Sequence record: NC_105512.1
DNA length: 64,000 nucleotides
Strand: one strand, 5' to 3'
From: Escherichia phage JLBYU43
Both the position numbers and the translations under genes were made by a program. The notes under the pieces were generated by a model. The model did no database searches. It was not told the origin of the DNA and saw only the letters and a list, made by a program, of their open reading frames with translations. Positions 30,363 to 42,583 of this stretch are shown in pieces (position 1 is the stretch's first letter; the number at the start of each line of letters is the position of its first letter).

Positions 30363-30456
30363 TGGCGGAAAAGATGGGAGTTGAACCCATAAGGCGGTAT
30401 TGCTACCACTCAACCGATTTCCAATCGGGTTTAGTCACCAGTCTATTTGCTTTTCC
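30363..30456 (-). tRNA. tRNA-Ser (GGA), long variable arm
   Basis: perfect acceptor GGAAAAG/CTTTTCC, CCA encoded, loop TTGGAAA. Confidence 0.5.
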
Positions 30457-33574: not shown

Positions 33575-33760
33575 TTACTCAGCTTTGAGTTTTTCGATAG
33601 CTTCCTCAACCTCTTTTAGAGCTTCACGACGCTCTACTTGACCTTGAAGTTCTTCAAGAAGTTCAGCTTTCAGAGCCTTAATAATATTACCACGAACCTT
33701 AATATTATTAATCATATTATCACGATCAGCTTCTAGTCGAGCAATTGCACGAGTTGTCAT
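33575..33760 (-). CDS. small coiled-coil protein
   Basis: 61-aa charged ORF. Confidence 0.35.
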   Translation of the reverse strand: MTTRAIARLEADRDNMINNIKVRGNIIKALKAELLEELQGQVERREALKEVEEAIEKLKAE

Positions 33761-36210: not shown

Positions 36211-36242
36211 GAAAAGCCCGCGCTCTCGGAGGAAACGCGGGC
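36211..36242 (-). terminator. rho-independent terminator
   Basis: AGCCCGCG/CGCGGGCT stem followed by a U-tract on the minus strand. Confidence 0.5.
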
Positions 36243-36267
36243 TTGTTTCGAAGATTACGTGTAACTA

Positions 36268-37284
36268 TTACTTATTACGCATATCCATAATCATCTGGCC
36301 ATCATAACCAGTACCTACAACAGTCTGAGGAACGCCACCCTGATATTTTTCAGCGCGTTTCATATCAACTTCCAGCTGCTTCCAACGAATCATTTCAGGA
36401 GTAATGGTACGTTGCAGAGCGGCGTTAGCTTCAGCTTCTTTCTTAGCTGCGTACAGTTTAGCATCTGCGTCACGTTCGTTAGCTACTGCCATATTTTCAC
36501 GAGCAGAACGATCAGCTTCAGCTTGCTTAACTTTCTGCTGTGCTTCTTGTTCAACACGAGCTAGTTCAGCTTTTGCAGCGTTAACTTGTTCTTCACGAAC
36601 TTTTGTGTTTTGTACCTGTTCCATGATTACCGGTGGCAGAGTAATATCCTGAAGGAATACTTGCTTAACGGTGTAACCATAAGGACGCGCGTACTCTTCT
36701 ACTTCTTGCTGAATAGCGGTTTGCAGTTGAGCCTGAATCTTAGCGTCGAACAGATCTTGTGCTTTTGGTACAGACTTACCAAACTCACGAATCGTAGACA
36801 GCATCTTCTCTTCAACGTACTTGTTCAGAGCTTGATCCTGAGTACCTGCGTTAATACGGTTAATCGGTGCCTTAGAACCATCAAACTGCAACATAACAGT
36901 CAAGTCAACAGTGGATTTAAACTTATCCTGGCTAGGAACCTGAAGTTTATCTAATTTTACAGCAATATCTTTTGTACTAAAAGTATCGAAAGATGCAAAC
37001 GGGTTTACAAGATGGAAACCAGGCAATACTGGATTAGGATCTACTTTACCCAGAAATGTTTGGGTTTTAACCGTACCATCAGAAACAATAGTATATGAAT
37101 TAAAAGCTAGAATCAAGCCTGCTAAACCAACTACAGCACCAATACCCCAACGTTTAATAGTATATGAATTAAAAGCTAGAATCAAGCCTGCTAAACCAAC
37201 TACAGCACCAATACCCCAACGTTTAATAGTACGAATTACTTTCTGCTCAGAAGTCAGTTCTTTCATATTTTTAGTATTAAACAT
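36268..37284 (-). CDS. SPFH/band-7 (prohibitin, HflC-like) membrane protein
   Basis: N-terminal TM anchor, SPFH core, C-terminal coiled coil; contains an exact 69-bp tandem duplication. Confidence 0.7.
   Translation of the reverse strand: MFNTKNMKELTSEQKVIRTIKRWGIGAVVGLAGLILAFNSYTIKRWGIGAVVGLAGLILAFNSYTIVSDGTVKTQTFLGKVDPNPVLPGFHLVNPFASFDTFSTKDIAVKLDKLQVPSQDKFKSTVDLTVMLQFDGSKAPINRINAGTQDQALNKYVEEKMLSTIREFGKSVPKAQDLFDAKIQAQLQTAIQQEVEEYARPYGYTVKQVFLQDITLPPVIMEQVQNTKVREEQVNAAKAELARVEQEAQQKVKQAEADRSARENMAVANERDADAKLYAAKKEAEANAALQRTITPEMIRWKQLEVDMKRAEKYQGGVPQTVVGTGYDGQMIMDMRNK
37087..37231. repeat. 69-bp perfect tandem duplication (2.1 copies)
   Basis: 37088-37156 is identical to 37157-37225; in frame, duplicating the TM segment of the SPFH protein. 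Confidence 0.85.
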
Positions 37285-37318: not shown

Positions 37319-37393
37319 TGGCCGAGGTGACAGGATTCGAACCTGCATAAAGGAATTTAGAAGACTCCTGCCTATCCCTTAGACTACACCCCG
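37319..37393 (-). tRNA. tRNA-Arg (UCU)
   Basis: T-arm GCAGG-TTCGAAT-CCTGT, loop CTTCTAA, CCA encoded. Confidence 0.55.
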
Positions 37394-37995
37394 TTTAGGT
37401 ATTTTTAAGAACTCTCGTAAAAGTCCTTAAAGATACCCAACGGTAGGTAGGGTCAGCCCCCTCAGATTAAGCTCTGCAGCCCTTCCGTCAGACAATATCT
37501 TCCAGTTTAAGTCAAGGTGACTTTGTGGTTATGTTCTCCGTATGTGAAGAACTCGGTTAGGCTTAGGTCATGACTCCCAGCCTACTGCTGCCGCTCAACA
37601 GGAATTATCGCGAATTACCTGTACTATTGGGCACCATTAGTGACATCTCTCATGTCAGCATTTCCCACTTTGTGGATAGCTTGAAAAACTACTCCGATAT
37701 GGAGAAAGAACTTCACTATCCTAGAAATACCTTCTAAAGTTCTTCTTTAGCCTGGACATAGTTAAATCGTAATAAAACTATTCAGCAGACTAGTTGGTTA
37801 GCCTGGAACCAACTACCGCGTGGTTTAGGCAGTGCGTAACTAACCTAGGAAGCTTTTACGTTAAAAGCATCAGTTATCCAGTTCTTACCGACCGTAGGAT
37901 TCGAACCTACATCTTCCACCAGTTACGGCTTGATAATACCAATTATACTAGGACGGCAGTGTTACTACATAAGTGATTTCCACACACCACTATTA

Positions 37996-38478
37996 CTAAC
38001 CAAAGTTAGTAAATTCTTTATGTAAGGATTCTCTTAATATCTTAGAGGCCTCGAAAGCCTCTTCCGCAGTTTTAAACCCTCTTTTACTGTAATTTTTTCC
38101 TTCATGTCTTACTTGGTATCTCCAGGAAGAGCCTTCCCAACTTACTCCTTTGTACCCAGAAGTATTATTGCATTGTTGGTTTCTATTCGCATTGTTTTGC
38201 GATCTAGAGGCGTCCCTTAGATTATTTTTCCTATTATTTCTAGGATTAGTATCCTTATGATCTACTTCTTCAGGCCTATATCCATAGTACATAATAAACA
38301 ATAAGACATGCAGTTGATAGGTGTCGCCCTGAAATCCCACATCTGGGTGTGATTTCTTATTATTGGCACAACACTCTTTCAAACCTTTCTTTGTTTTCCT
38401 ATATAGTACCCCATTATCAGGATCAGCTACAAAATATTTTTCAAGTATTTCTTTAGTAGGGTATTCTTTCCTTTTCAT
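37996..38478 (-). CDS. HNH endonuclease with AP2-like domain
   Basis: HNH motif (EVDHKDTNPRNN) plus C-terminal YKGVSWEGSSWRYQV. Confidence 0.65.
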   Translation of the reverse strand: MKRKEYPTKEILEKYFVADPDNGVLYRKTKKGLKECCANNKKSHPDVGFQGDTYQLHVLLFIMYYGYRPEEVDHKDTNPRNNRKNNLRDASRSQNNANRNQQCNNTSGYKGVSWEGSSWRYQVRHEGKNYSKRGFKTAEEAFEASKILRESLHKEFTNFG

Positions 38479-38521
38479 GAAACTATTATATCAACTTTTT
38501 CGATGTTAAGCAAATCAATTT

Positions 38522-41881: not shown

Positions 41882-42583
41882 TCAAATTTTCATTTTTTCG
41901 ATCATAGCTGCAACACAATAGCTCTCAACTAGGGCATCGAATGCTGGGTCGTGCTTAACCGGATAGATCCCATAACGAATGGTGTCCATCTTCTCCATTT
42001 TAGCTATTGCCCAGCTAATACCTTCGGTTTCTAGAGCTTTATAACTATAGCCAGTTTGCATCCAGAGATTACGAAGAGATCTAACATTACCCAAGTTCCA
42101 GAATTTCCACGGAACTATTTCTTCATTGGTTCCAGCATGGAAAGTGTTTGCAGAGTAGATAGTCATATCAAACTCTGGGCCATTGCCATAATACAAAGCA
42201 TTTTCGCCTAGAGCCAACTCCATAATATTTTGAGCCATAGAGAAGGCAGCATGGTTAGAGCCAAGTTTATTAGTGCAATGATGTTTACCATTTTGGAAGG
42301 CAACCAGTTTTGGATTAGGCTCATTCATAGCTTCCATAATGTGGATAGCAGACGGGCTATGTTTAGCCTGATCCATCCAGAATGCTAGAGTAGATGCTGT
42401 AACTTTGGCACCAGAATTAAGTTGATCTTGTACATCTAAAGTAACAAATACTAGATCAGGGTCTTTATCAATTCCATGCATAGCCACAAAAGCGAATGAA
42501 GGCATTGCGATATGGGTAGTACCACAATCTCCTGGAGTTCCTAGAGATTCAATATCTAGCATACCAAATGGTTTTACTTTCAT
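41882..42583 (-). CDS. putative 3'-5' exonuclease (DEDD-like)
   Basis: Exo I-like LDIESLG and Exo III-like HDPAFDAL motifs. Confidence 0.45.
   Translation of the reverse strand: MKVKPFGMLDIESLGTPGDCGTTHIAMPSFAFVAMHGIDKDPDLVFVTLDVQDQLNSGAKVTASTLAFWMDQAKHSPSAIHIMEAMNEPNPKLVAFQNGKHHCTNKLGSNHAAFSMAQNIMELALGENALYYGNGPEFDMTIYSANTFHAGTNEEIVPWKFWNLGNVRSLRNLWMQTGYSYKALETEGISWAIAKMEKMDTIRYGIYPVKHDPAFDALVESYCVAAMIEKMKI

What the first reader, a model, noticed from the sequence alone, without database searches (positions are those of the whole stretch)
37394..37960. ~570 bp of structured non-coding DNA at the upstream edge of the tRNA island
The region has no ORF on the coding strand. It contains a 9-bp-stem / 7-nt-loop hairpin (37791-37815), a DnaA-box-like TTGTGGATAG, and a CCA-less tRNA-like element with a perfect T-arm (~37886-37957). 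It is a candidate for a long leader, a stable RNA or a regulatory region.
Basis: seen in the sequence. Interest (0 to 1): 0.45.

Follow-up and report, generated by a model that had tools for sequence, protein, structure and literature searches.

The report
T5-type rnaX: large structured phage RNA
This stretch is the body of rnaX, a roughly 600-base non-coding RNA that T5-like phages encode at the edge of their tRNA gene cluster; it folds into three conserved domains, one of which holds a tRNA look-alike, and its function is unknown.

Summary
The window comes from a T5-like phage (Demerecviridae). On the minus strand, 37394-37994 has no conserved ORF. It contains the 9-bp/7-nt hairpin and a tRNA-like element (Rfam tRNA 35.5 bits, gathering score 29). 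The DnaA-like box occurs at chance level.

The locus is orthologous to "rnaX / RNAX, stable RNA with unknown functions", annotated in GenBank for T5, phage 5 and DT571/2 between promoter P16-17 and tRNA-Arg(UCU).

Comparing 45 homologues shows a modular RNA, 545-895 nt from the conserved leader to P5, with three covariation-supported domains:
- **5' domain:** a 12-bp clamp helix encloses the tRNA-like element. Its acceptor, D and T stems covary, but its anticodon arm is not conserved.
- **Central domain:** includes a hairpin with an invariant self-complementary loop, AGUCAUGA.
- **3' domain:** ends in a 15-bp hairpin 4 nt before tRNA-Arg.

G-U pairs outnumber A-C pairs 212 to 25, so the minus-strand RNA is what is under selection. 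No Rfam family matches except tRNA.

The closest known kind is GOLLD/ROOL, large ornate phage RNAs found near tRNA islands. The locus was already annotated; the architecture appears undescribed and the function is unknown. I favour a tRNA-mimic decoy or scaffold, at low confidence.

The parts
38485..38513 (-). Predicted sigma-70 promoter of the rnaX transcription unit: TTGCTT (38513-38508), 17-nt spacer, TATAAT (38490-38485). It is the counterpart of T5 'promoter P16-17'.
   Evidence: Sequence comparison with the annotated promoters of T5, phage 5 and DT571/2 and with phiR2-01. Prediction only; transcription was not measured.
37996..38478 (-). HNH homing-endonuclease ORF (160 aa) inserted between the promoter and rnaX. 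It is absent from T5, phage 5 and DT571/2. Its ATG lies 7-8 nt after the -10 box. It replaces the P0 stem and the optional 5' module seen in relatives.
   Evidence: Pfam HNH_3 E=1.2e-11; annotations of relatives; alignment of promoter regions.
37978..37994 (-). Conserved single-stranded leader motif AAUAGUGGNGUGUSGAA.
   Evidence: Nearly invariant in 27 distinct homologues; used as the search pattern.
37964..37977 (-). Clamp helix, 5' strand AUCACUUAUGUAGU. It pairs with 37869-37882.
   Evidence: RNAalifold on a MAFFT alignment. 12 pairs are 100% paired in 27 distinct sequences, 5 of them with changes on both sides. The C.C and G.G 1x1 mismatches are invariant in those 27. The helix is kept with further compensatory changes in DU_PP_V and PSTCR5; in my hand alignment G.G is kept in both and C.C only in PSTCR5.
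37886..37957 (-). tRNA-like element. Acceptor 37957-37951 / 37893-37887, D arm 37948-37933, non-conserved 'anticodon' arm 37932-37915 (3-bp stem, 6-nt loop GUAACU), T arm 37910-37894, A73 37886. It is flanked by the conserved junctions AACACU (37963-37958) and AGA (37885-37883).
   Evidence: Rfam tRNA 35.5 bits. Acceptor, D and T stems covary. D-loop GG and T-loop UUCGA are at least 90% conserved. The anticodon arm differs among orthologues, and ARAGORN assigns ACU, UCA, CGA, UAG, AGA or nothing.
37869..37882 (-). Clamp helix, 3' strand ACUGGAUAACUGAU.
37852..37868 (-). Hairpin H2, GCUUUU-AACGU-AAAAGC.
   Evidence: 2 of 6 pairs have compensatory changes: UA/CG/AU at one position and CG/GC at another.
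37826..37847 (-). Hairpin H3 (UAGGU...GCCUA), followed by the conserved motif AAACCACG (37826-37819).
   Evidence: Alignments show GGCAG/CUGCC in SB9 and GACAG/CUGUC in phiR2-01. Not formally counted.
37791..37815 (-).
   Evidence: Conserved in T5-type and SB9-type relatives without covariation, and replaced by other modules in Stitch, Klebsiella and Pectobacterium phages.
37670..37790 (-). Variable middle modules (hairpins 37749-37791, 37723-37746, 37674-37721). This is the mosaic part that differs between phage lineages.
   Evidence: BLAST shows modular conservation. RNAalifold on 28 collinear relatives finds few compensatory pairs.
37523..37669 (-). Central domain, closed by invariant GUGG (37668-37665) / CCAC (37528-37525). 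It contains hairpins Ha 37657-37641, Hb 37622-37595 and Hc 37553-37533, and the long-range helix GGU/ACC.
   Evidence: MAFFT alignment A6 of 26 distinct sequences: 96.1% of cells paired against 30-51% in slid controls, and 11 pairs changed on both sides against 0-3.
37559..37584 (-). PAL hairpin with the invariant motif GGGAGUCAUGACC (37578-37566). Its 8-nt loop AGUCAUGA contains the self-complementary UCAUGA / GUCAUGAC.
   Evidence: GUCAUGAC is present in 44 of 45 homologues. It sits in a hairpin in most of the 22 distinct contexts, with at least 6 different outer-stem sequences; covariation.
37393..37525 (-). 3' domain. P1 37523-37509; conserved strand AAACUGGAAGAUAUU 37508-37494; long-range P2 37489-37481 / 37447-37439 with a conserved 1x1 mismatch; P3 plus CUUAAU 37480-37466; P4 37462-37449; P5 37437-37398 (15 bp, loop UUUUACGAGAG); tail UAAA 37397-37394.
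   Evidence: Independent single-sequence folds of four sequence types give the same P2/P3/P4 topology. Covariance model R1 and its alignment: 92% paired against 36-44% slid, and 8 pairs changed on both sides. R1 also finds it in KFSSM, AAS21 and DU_PP_V.
37319..37393 (-). tRNA-Arg(UCU) immediately downstream. Its 5' processing site would define the 3' end of rnaX.
   Evidence: ARAGORN and Rfam; same arrangement in annotated relatives. RNase P cleavage is inferred from general tRNA biology.
36214..36244 (-). Intrinsic terminator-like hairpin after the SPFH/Band_7 gene; probable end of the transcription unit. It corresponds to 'bidirectional terminator ter1' of T5.

Best explanation
The region is the body of rnaX, a large structured non-coding RNA of T5-like phages. 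In this window it spans about 37994-37394 on the minus strand, roughly 600 nt.

Shown here:
- It is orthologous to the annotated RNAX of T5, phage 5 and DT571/2.
- It has no conserved ORF.
- It folds into three domains kept by compensatory base changes on the tRNA-coding strand.
  - 5' domain: a 12-bp clamp helix, carrying two 1x1 mismatches that are invariant in the 27 aligned sequences, encloses a tRNA-like element. The acceptor, D and T arms of that element are conserved. Its anticodon arm varies freely or is missing.
  - Central domain: presents an invariant self-complementary 8-nt loop.
  - 3' domain: ends in a 15-bp hairpin 4 nt before tRNA-Arg.

Inferred:
- Host sigma-70 RNA polymerase starts at TTGCTT-17-TATAAT (38513-38485). 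It reads through the inserted HNH gene, rnaX, tRNA-Arg and the SPFH gene to the terminator at about 36244-36214.
- RNase P cutting at the 5' end of tRNA-Arg makes the rnaX 3' end. The P5 hairpin then shields that end from 3' exonucleases, which would explain a stable RNA.

Most likely mode of action (my estimate about 0.35): a trans-acting accessory RNA of the tRNA island. Its clamped tRNA mimic does not decode. Instead it serves as a handle for a factor that recognises the tRNA elbow and acceptor, such as a tRNA-processing or modifying enzyme or a tRNA-targeting defence protein. The palindromic loop would then mediate self-association or bind an invariant partner.

The RNA is dispensable in the laboratory. 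The T5 record AY734508 marks the two ends of the st0 deletion at the two ends of the 8.2-kb segment that carries rnaX.
For: Identity:
- 557 phage records match; S113 is 98.7% identical.
- rnaX features are annotated in AJ604531, AY734508 and KM979355, between promoter P16-17 and tRNA-Arg.

Structure:
- 5' domain: 93.1% of cells paired against 34-40% in slid controls; 15 pairs changed on both sides against 0-2 (unbiased MAFFT alignment).
- Central domain: 96.1% against 30-51%; 11 pairs against 0-3.
- 3' domain: 92.0% against 36-44%; 8 pairs against 2-5.
- Strand: 212 G-U cells against 25 A-C cells.
- Fold z-score is -3.55 on the minus strand.

Not a decoding tRNA:
- The anticodon arm does not align.
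- Orthologues get inconsistent anticodons or none.
- The arm is a long helix in Klebsiella phages and lacks a normal 7-nt anticodon loop in phiR2-01 and DU_PP_V (my reading).
- The whole element is replaced by a hairpin in L056, L059 and PSTCR5 while the clamp is kept.

Breadth:
- Markadamsvirinae (Tequintavirus, Epseptimavirus, AAS21).
- The Klebsiella phage genus Sugarlandvirus.
- Mccorquodalevirinae (DU_PP_V).
- Priunavirus, clamp domain only.

Transcription unit.

Dispensability: st0 deletion annotation.
Against: - 'Stable RNA' rests on the GenBank annotators' wording, and I found no paper on RNAX.
- The homologues fall into only about 8-10 independent sequence types that recombine. The covariation counts are not corrected for phylogeny.
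- The 3'-domain alignment was fitted by the model, and the central-domain structure was derived from the alignment on which it was counted.
- In several phages ORFs sit between the 3' domain and tRNA-Arg. RNase P at tRNA-Arg therefore cannot define the 3' end in every phage.
- The clamp leaves the acceptor end unfree. This argues against aminoacylation and may also hinder RNase P.
- The decoy/scaffold reading has no direct support.
Confidence: 0.8

Rival explanations
1. Cis-acting leader or processing platform. The structured region serves only the transcript it sits in. It would stabilise or time the maturation of tRNA-Arg and the downstream mRNA, and punctuate the HNH/rnaX/tRNA precursor through RNase P, E or III sites. 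It would have no function as a free RNA.
For: - It lies between a strong promoter and tRNA-Arg, with no terminator of its own.
- The tRNA-like element keeps U(-1), a 7-bp acceptor and a T arm, as an RNase P substrate would.
- In some phages ORFs with ribosome-binding sites follow P5 directly.
Against: - About 600-900 nt with three covarying multi-helix domains and invariant loops is far more than processing signals need.
- The 3' domain is kept unchanged whether tRNA-Arg or an ORF follows it.
- The tRNA-like element can be swapped for a hairpin while the clamp is kept.
- T5 annotators list it as a stable RNA.
Confidence: 0.25
2. A decaying tRNA pseudogene plus a functionless spacer, shaped by repeated homing-endonuclease insertions and recombination.
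For: - ARAGORN fails on the element.
- Pipelines label orthologues tRNA-OTHER, pseudo, Sec, Ser or Gln.
- HNH genes flank the locus and the middle is mosaic.
- The region is deletable in T5 st0.
Against: - Compensatory changes keep the acceptor, D and T stems and the clamp.
- The flanks (leader, junctions AACACU / AAGA) are more conserved than the tRNA-like element itself.
- The domains are conserved across subfamilies.
- Neutral decay would not give 92-96% pairing with 8-15 double changes per domain.
Confidence: 0.03
3. The tRNA-like element is a working tRNA, for example a UGA suppressor as the 'tRNA-Sec/UCA' calls in SB9-type phages suggest, and the rest is its precursor.
For: - ARAGORN calls tRNA-SeC(UCA) with a 7-nt loop in SB9, vaffelhjerte and Ob_P.
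- The Rfam tRNA score is above the gathering score.
Against: - In this window the arm has a 3-bp stem and a 6-nt loop.
- Orthologues show five different 'anticodons', long helices or no arm at all.
- There is no CCA, 1-72 is G-U or G.A, and 5-68 is U.U.
- The acceptor end is held in the clamp.
Confidence: 0.04
4. A DNA-level element (replication origin with a DnaA box, endonuclease target, packaging or nick site) or small protein-coding genes.
For: - A DnaA-like 9-mer is present.
- ORFs of 55 and 60 aa lie on the plus strand.
- Some pipelines annotate 'hypothetical proteins' here.
Against: - The DnaA-like box is at chance frequency.
- G-U outnumbers A-C 212:25, which is strand-specific and RNA-specific.
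- The ORFs are not conserved beyond near-identical relatives.
- The annotated T5 major nick lies elsewhere.
Confidence: 0.03

Closest known systems
rnaX / RNAX of bacteriophages T5, 5 and DT571/2 (GenBank AY734508, AY543070, AJ604531, KM979355: 'stable RNA with unknown functions')
   Same: - Same position between promoter P16-17 and tRNA-Arg(UCU).
- 86-91% identity.
- Same leader, tRNA-like element and 3' hairpin.
   Different: - Here an HNH gene separates the promoter from the RNA and replaces the P0 stem.
- The central part of the 3' domain is of a different sequence type from T5.
- The database entries give only coordinates, with no structure or function.
GOLLD and ROOL RNAs (large ornate RNAs of phages and prophages)
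   Same: - Phage-encoded, often near tRNA islands, 500-900 nt, many covarying helices, function unknown.
- GOLLD has a conserved domain plus a variable one and sometimes carries tRNAs in its linker.
- Kissing loops drive their assembly (bioRxiv 10.1101/2024.12.08.627333, read).
- rnaX shares the setting, size, modularity, an embedded tRNA-like unit and a self-complementary loop.
   Different: - No match to the Rfam models of either family, even at E<=10 or E<=5.
- Different hosts: rnaX is in T5-like phages of enterobacteria.
- Multimer formation was not tested.
YrlA / bacterial Y RNAs
   Same: A non-coding RNA with a tRNA-like module that mimics the D arm, T arm and acceptor stem but has no decoding anticodon arm, joined to a conserved helix (PMC4201824).
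   Different: - YrlA is about 100-130 nt (length from my own knowledge) and lies next to a Ro60/Rsr gene, with a Ro-binding helix.
- rnaX is about 5-8 times longer.
- The rnaX neighbours are YqeY-like, HNH and SPFH genes.
- No Rfam family other than tRNA scored in this region.
- The helix of rnaX closes the acceptor end.
Stable RNAs C and D (species 1 and 2) of the phage T4 tRNA cluster (own knowledge, not checked here)
   Same: Stable RNAs of unknown function, co-transcribed and processed with a phage tRNA cluster and dispensable in the laboratory.
   Different: They are much smaller (about 120-140 nt). I tested no sequence or structural relation.
tmRNA, including two-piece forms, and mascRNA-type tRNA-like processing signals
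   Same: A tRNA-like domain inside a longer non-coding RNA. RNase P recognition is possible.
   Different: - ARAGORN finds no tmRNA.
- Position 3-70 is C-G, not the G-U alanine identity pair (the identity rule is own knowledge).
- There is no tag reading frame, and the acceptor end is not free.

Membership tests
T5 rnaX (RNAX) | Lies between the early promoter P16-17 and tRNA-Arg(UCU), on the tRNA strand | tested here: met
   tRNA-Arg is at 37319-37393(-). A homologous promoter lies at 38513-38485, with an HNH gene inserted in between.
T5 rnaX (RNAX) | Sequence homology to the annotated rnaX features | tested here: met
   90.8% over 695 nt to phage 5; 86.1% to DT571/2 over all 492 nt and 88.4% to T5 over 386 nt of the body.
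T5 rnaX (RNAX) | Accumulates as a stable RNA in infected cells | not testable with these tools
   Only the annotators' note is available. No paper was found.
tRNA (Rfam RF00005) | Cloverleaf score at or above the gathering score | tested here: met
   35.5 bits against 29. Orthologues score 38-39 bits.
tRNA (Rfam RF00005) | 5-bp anticodon stem with a 7-nt loop, and an anticodon conserved among orthologues | tested here: not met
   The 18-nt region is left unaligned. By my reading the arm is a 3-bp stem with a 6-nt loop. Orthologues give ACU, UCA, CGA, UAG, AGA, none, a long helix or no arm.
tRNA (Rfam RF00005) | Free acceptor end able to carry CCA and an amino acid | tested here: inconclusive
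   No CCA is encoded. The leader and trailer pair in a covarying 12-bp clamp 6 and 4 nt from the acceptor stem. Processing was not tested.
GOLLD / ROOL | Match to the family covariance model | tested here: not met
   No hit at the gathering score or at E<=10 in the window, nor at E<=5 in five relatives.
GOLLD / ROOL | Large multi-domain covarying RNA encoded by phages next to tRNA genes | tested here: met
   family description.
GOLLD / ROOL | Homo-oligomeric assembly through kissing loops | not testable with these tools
   Only a candidate exists: the invariant self-complementary loop AGUCAUGA.
YrlA / Y RNA | Encoded next to a Ro60/Rsr (TROVE) gene | tested here: not met
   The three flanking genes I scanned match HNH_3, YqeY (24.9 bits, below Pfam's 27-bit cut-off) and Band_7. 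The rest of the window was not scanned for TROVE.
YrlA / Y RNA | tRNA-like D arm, T arm and acceptor stem without a decoding anticodon arm | tested here: met
   family description.
YrlA / Y RNA | Match to an Rfam model for the family | tested here: not met
   Only tRNA and chance-level matches were returned. I did not confirm that Rfam 15 holds a YrlA model.
tmRNA | tRNA-Ala-like acceptor (G3-U70) plus a tag reading frame | tested here: not met
   ARAGORN finds no tmRNA. Position 3-70 is C-G in 26 of 27 sequences.

The most novel reading that the evidence does not exclude
rnaX is a third class of giant ornate phage RNA, beside GOLLD and ROOL, and the first in a classical, genetically tractable coliphage. 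In this reading it self-associates through the invariant palindromic loop. It also displays a clamped tRNA mimic, possibly completed by the GGG-(U)CAU(GA)-CCC hairpin acting as an anticodon-arm look-alike. That mimic would capture or decoy a host factor that recognises tRNA, for example a tRNA-targeting defence nuclease or a processing enzyme. rnaX would then act as an RNA-based partner of the anti-defence tRNA island.
Probability: 0.2. Interest if true: 0.85.

Novelty: new member of a known kind. Interest (0 to 1): 0.58.

Why it matters
T5 is a textbook phage with easy genetics, and the viable st0 deletion already lacks this locus. GOLLD and ROOL come from hosts that are hard to work with, and their function is still unknown despite recent cryo-EM structures.

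If rnaX is the T5-family counterpart, the question of what giant phage RNAs beside tRNA islands do becomes directly testable in E. coli and Salmonella. The tools would be deletions, trans-complementation, defence-system panels and pull-downs.

There is also a practical point for annotation. About 500 deposited T5-like genomes label the tRNA-like module inconsistently (tRNA-OTHER, Sec, Ser, Gln, pseudo) or place 'hypothetical proteins' over the RNA. A covariance model would fix that.

Tried and rejected
- **Known RNA families.** Rfam at the gathering score on the whole window, at E<=10 on the region and at E<=5 on five relatives returned nothing but tRNA.
- **tmRNA.** ARAGORN found none.
- **DnaA box or origin.** The box is at chance level.
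- **Coding.** The ORFs are not conserved.
- **Second copy.** Models R1 and R2 find no second copy or paralogue of either domain in the window. Ordinary tRNAs match only the tRNA part of R2, weakly.
- **Homologues outside Demerecviridae.**
  - The metagenome pattern scan gave only T5-like contigs plus four chance hits.
  - The scan of 185,579 bacterial and archaeal genomes with the P5 pattern gave two Flavobacteriales hits that the model rejects.
  - IMG/VR holds only isolate-like T5 relatives.
- **Literature.** Six searches found no paper on RNAX. The one full-text 'RNAX' hit had no occurrence in its main text.
- **Alternative helix in the 3' domain.** RNAalifold on a subset preferred a helix pairing the conserved J strand (columns 23-25 and 28-31 of the subset alignment) with columns 35-43. 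I set it aside because its varying positions change on one side only (A or G opposite a constant U at 24:42). The competing P2 pair shows A-U to G-C double changes. A switch between the two is not excluded.
- **Pairing between the J strand and the loop of the 37791-37815 hairpin.** Only 4 nt lie in the loop, and there is only one compensatory example. Left as an idea.
- **A full 600-nt consensus fold.** The long-range pairs involving the leader GUGG and the several CCAC motifs are between invariant bases and cannot be tested by covariation.
Full report
**1. What the window is**

All 23 tRNA genes of the window lie on the minus strand. The stretch 37300-38010 matches 557 phage records, all T5-like (Demerecviridae). 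Salmonella phage S113 is the closest at 98.7%. The finding therefore has to be read on the minus strand, from 37960 down to 37394, ending at tRNA-Arg(UCU) at 37393-37319.

**2. Check of the observation**

- **Hairpin.** It is exactly as described: arms 37791-37799 and 37807-37815, 9 bp, perfect, with a 7-nt loop.
- **ORFs.** On the minus strand there is no ORF above 30 aa. The plus strand has ORFs of 55 and 60 aa. The 55-aa ORF is intact in 2 of 28 collinear relatives. The other two ORFs persist only where the nucleotide sequence is almost unchanged.
- **tRNA-like element.** 37886-37957(-) passes the Rfam tRNA gathering score (35.5 against 29 bits). The match covers the acceptor, D and T arms only; the 18-nt anticodon region is left unaligned. 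ARAGORN does not call it.
- **DnaA-like box.** It is a 1-mismatch match. The window holds 26 such matches against 19 +/- 4 expected, so it is chance.
- **Fold energy.** The minus-strand RNA folds better than shuffled sequences (z = -3.55), and better than the plus strand does (z = -2.26).

**3. Identity**

The feature runs from the start site of "promoter P16-17" to the base before tRNA-Arg:
- phage 5: 785 nt
- T5: 719 nt
- DT571/2: 636 nt

The window sequence is 86-91% identical to these. The T5 record also marks the two ends of the st0 deletion (wild-type coordinates 33667-33683 and 41882-41891) at the two ends of the 8.2-kb segment that holds rnaX. That st0 phage is viable is my own knowledge. 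I found no paper on RNAX in the searchable literature, and Rfam has no family for it.

**4. Transcription unit (inferred)**

- T5, phage 5 and DT571/2 have TTGCTA-17-TATAAT upstream of rnaX.
- The window has TTGCTT (38513-38508)-17-TATAAT (38490-38485). This is nearly identical to the phiR2-01 promoter.
- In the window an HNH endonuclease gene follows at once (37996-38478; Pfam HNH_3). Its ATG is 7-8 nt after the -10 box.
- In T5 the transcript begins with a short stem, AAAUUAGAGAG/CUUCUCUAAUUU. In phage 5, Stitch, phiR2-01, AAS21 and PSTCR5 the same position holds an extra 150-400-nt module that starts GAACAGCGAGCCGAUUACGCUGAG. The HNH insertion has replaced that part in the window.
- There is no terminator between the promoter and the hairpin at 36244-36214, downstream of the SPFH gene. 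That hairpin corresponds to T5 "ter1".

**5. Comparative material**

Pattern scans of IMG/VR and metagenomes and fetched GenBank loci gave 42 distinct full-length homologues, 573-895 nt from the conserved leader to the terminal hairpin. I added Pectobacterium phage DU_PP_V (Mccorquodalevirinae), Pantoea phage AAS21 and Providencia phage PSTCR5 (Priunavirus). Conservation is modular. A 5' block and a 3' block are found everywhere, and the middle is mosaic.

**6. The 5' domain (window 37994-37852)**

RNAalifold on a plain MAFFT alignment of 27 distinct sequences found an unexpected helix. The leader AUCACUUAUGUAGU (37977-37964) pairs with ACUGGAUAACUGAU (37882-37869), just downstream of the tRNA-like element.

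*The clamp.*
- All 12 pairs are standard pairs in all 27 sequences, and five show changes on both sides.
- Two 1x1 mismatches, C.C and G.G, flank an invariant UUAU/AUAA core; all three features are invariant in those 27 sequences.
- My hand alignment of the DU_PP_V and PSTCR5 sequences keeps the helix through many further compensatory changes. The G.G mismatch is kept in both. The C.C mismatch and the UUAU/AUAA core are kept in PSTCR5, while DU_PP_V has a different core with a U.U mismatch one position away. Model R2 detects PSTCR5 at 61 bits.

*The tRNA-like element.*
- Inside the clamp, the acceptor, D and T stems also covary, as does the next hairpin H2 (37868-37852).
- For the whole domain, 93.1% of cells are paired against 34-40% when partners are slid. 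15 pairs changed on both sides against 0-2.
- The D-loop GG and the T-loop UUCGA that build the tRNA elbow are at least 90% conserved, as are the junctions AACACU and AAGA.

*The anticodon arm* is not conserved (my reading of the aligned sequences):

| Phage or locus | Anticodon arm |
|---|---|
| This window, T5 | 3-bp stem, 6-nt loop |
| SB9 type | 7-nt loop reading UCA |
| phiR2-01, DU_PP_V | stem with a 5-nt loop |
| Klebsiella phages, L045 | about 30-nt extended helix, itself covarying |
| KFSSM | almost absent |
| L056, L059, PSTCR5 | whole element replaced by a simple hairpin, clamp kept |

ARAGORN assigns the orthologues ACU, UCA, CGA, UAG, AGA or nothing. This is a tRNA-shaped module under selection for its top half. 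It is neither a decoding tRNA nor a decaying pseudogene.

**7. The central domain (37669-37523)**

- It is closed by invariant GUGG/CCAC and contains three covarying hairpins and a long-range GGU/ACC helix.
- 96.1% of cells are paired against 30-51% in slid controls. 11 pairs changed on both sides against 0-3. The caveat is that the structure was predicted on the same alignment.
- Its most striking part is the hairpin around the invariant GGGAGUCAUGACC (37578-37566).
  - GUCAUGAC is present in 44 of 45 homologues.
  - In most of the 22 distinct sequence contexts it folds as an 8-nt loop, AGUCAUGA, on a G-C-rich stem.
  - The outer stem has at least six unrelated sequences.
- The loop is self-complementary (UCAUGA, or GUCAUGAC if the closing pair opens).

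**8. The 3' domain (37525-37393)**

- Single-sequence folds of four different sequence types independently give the same topology:
  - hairpin P1;
  - a conserved single strand, AAACUGGAAGAUA;
  - a long-range helix P2 with one conserved mismatch, enclosing P3, the conserved CUUAAU and P4;
  - a 15-bp hairpin P5 with the conserved loop UUUUACGAGAG.
- P5 ends 4 nt before tRNA-Arg.
- A covariance model (R1) aligned 29 distinct sequences. 92% of cells are paired against 36-44% slid, and 8 pairs changed on both sides, including three in P2.
- R1 also finds the domain in KFSSM, AAS21 and DU_PP_V.
- The domain is unchanged in phages where ORFs have been inserted between P5 and tRNA-Arg.

**9. Which strand and which molecule**

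Over the three structures there are 2189 Watson-Crick cells, 212 G-U cells and only 25 A-C cells. On the opposite strand every G-U would be an A-C mismatch. Selection therefore acts on the RNA of the tRNA strand, not on DNA and not on an antisense transcript.

**10. Mechanism**

Shown:
- A large multi-domain RNA fold is conserved across at least two subfamilies, plus two genera not assigned to a subfamily (Sugarlandvirus and Priunavirus).
- It has a non-decoding tRNA mimic held in a clamp.
- It has invariant single-stranded motifs.

Inferred from general knowledge:
- Transcription from the early promoter.
- The 3' end made by RNase P at tRNA-Arg.
- Protection of that end by P5, giving a stable RNA.

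Function is open. My estimates:
- **About 0.35:** a trans-acting accessory RNA of the tRNA island. It would use the tRNA-shaped module as a handle or decoy for a factor that recognises the tRNA elbow and acceptor. The palindromic loop would serve self-association or an invariant partner.
- **About 0.25:** a purely cis-acting processing or stability role.
- **The remainder:** unknown.

The upstream YqeY-like gene (Pfam YqeY 24.9 bits, below the 27-bit cut-off) is syntenic in most lineages. Only 3 of the 452 records that carry it are Klebsiella phages, while about 80 Klebsiella phage records carry rnaX. It can be at most an optional partner.

**11. Comparison with known systems**

- **GOLLD and ROOL** are the nearest kind. 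They are large ornate RNAs of phages and prophages, often beside tRNA islands, with kissing-loop-driven assembly. GOLLD has a conserved and a variable half and sometimes tRNAs in its linker. rnaX shares the setting and style but matches neither model. It is not a member.
- **YrlA/Y RNAs** share the idea of a tRNA mimic without an anticodon arm joined to a conserved helix. They are small (own knowledge) and lie next to Ro60 genes. The three flanking genes scanned here are not TROVE genes.
- **tmRNA** is excluded.
- **T4 stable RNAs C and D** are a functional analogy from my own knowledge only.

**12. Verdict**

The locus has been in GenBank as rnaX since the T5 genome work, so its existence is not new. 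What seems undescribed is its architecture, its spread across the family, and its resemblance in kind to GOLLD and ROOL.

Limits:
- There are only about 8-10 independent sequence types.
- The covariation counts are not corrected for phylogeny.
- Function is unknown.

Noticed in passing
window 37087-37231: Perfect tandem duplication (period 69 bp, 2.1 copies, 100% match) inside the SPFH/Band_7 ORF 36268-37284(-). It is in frame and adds 23 aa relative to the 315-aa T5 homologue.
   Followed up: partly
window 37996-38513: The HNH_3 homing-endonuclease ORF starts 7-8 nt after the -10 box of the rnaX promoter, so its mRNA would be leaderless or nearly so. The insertion has replaced the first stem and optional 5' module of rnaX seen in T5, phage 5, Stitch and phiR2-01.
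   Followed up: partly
window 30363-30456: The ARAGORN tRNA-Ser(GGA) call (94 nt) is the only ARAGORN call in the window that does not reach the Rfam tRNA gathering score.
   Followed up: no
L096 (T5, AY734508) 197-269; window just below 33788: T5 annotators list a second unexplained RNA, the 73-nt 'RNA3', directly downstream of tRNA-Asn. I did not examine the equivalent stretch of the window.
   Followed up: no
L003 (T5) 816-930; L029: T5 itself carries a partial duplication of the 3'-domain P1 hairpin plus the AAACUGGAA strand, two copies 87 nt apart.
   Followed up: no
L006 1672-2181, L090 2147-2656, L009 1635-2168, L010 1638-2143: In SB9, KFSSM, phiR2-01 and Klebsiella phages extra DNA sits directly after the P5 hairpin and before tRNA-Arg. 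It is annotated as ORFs in SB9, KFSSM and KpGranit, and is unannotated in phiR2-01. The P5 end looks like a recurrent insertion boundary.
   Followed up: no
L089 (Obesumbacterium phage Ob_P) 1797-1940: rnaX is cut off shortly after the T arm of the tRNA-like element and is followed by ORFs. This is a natural truncation that keeps only the 5' part.
   Followed up: partly
L001 70-230, L005 620-830, L009 600-1000, L093 3740-3860, L092 4300-4760: An optional 5' module of rnaX (150-500 nt) begins with the conserved hairpin GAACAGCGAGCCGAUUACGCUGAG. It is present in phage 5, Stitch, phiR2-01, AAS21 and PSTCR5, and absent from T5, DT571/2 and this window.
   Followed up: no
window 37509-37523 and 37566-37578: Hairpin P1 (AAGUCA-CCU-UGACUU) is the same palindrome as the invariant PAL loop (AGUCAUGAC), interrupted by CCU. 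The two could exchange strands or bind the same dimeric partner.
   Followed up: no
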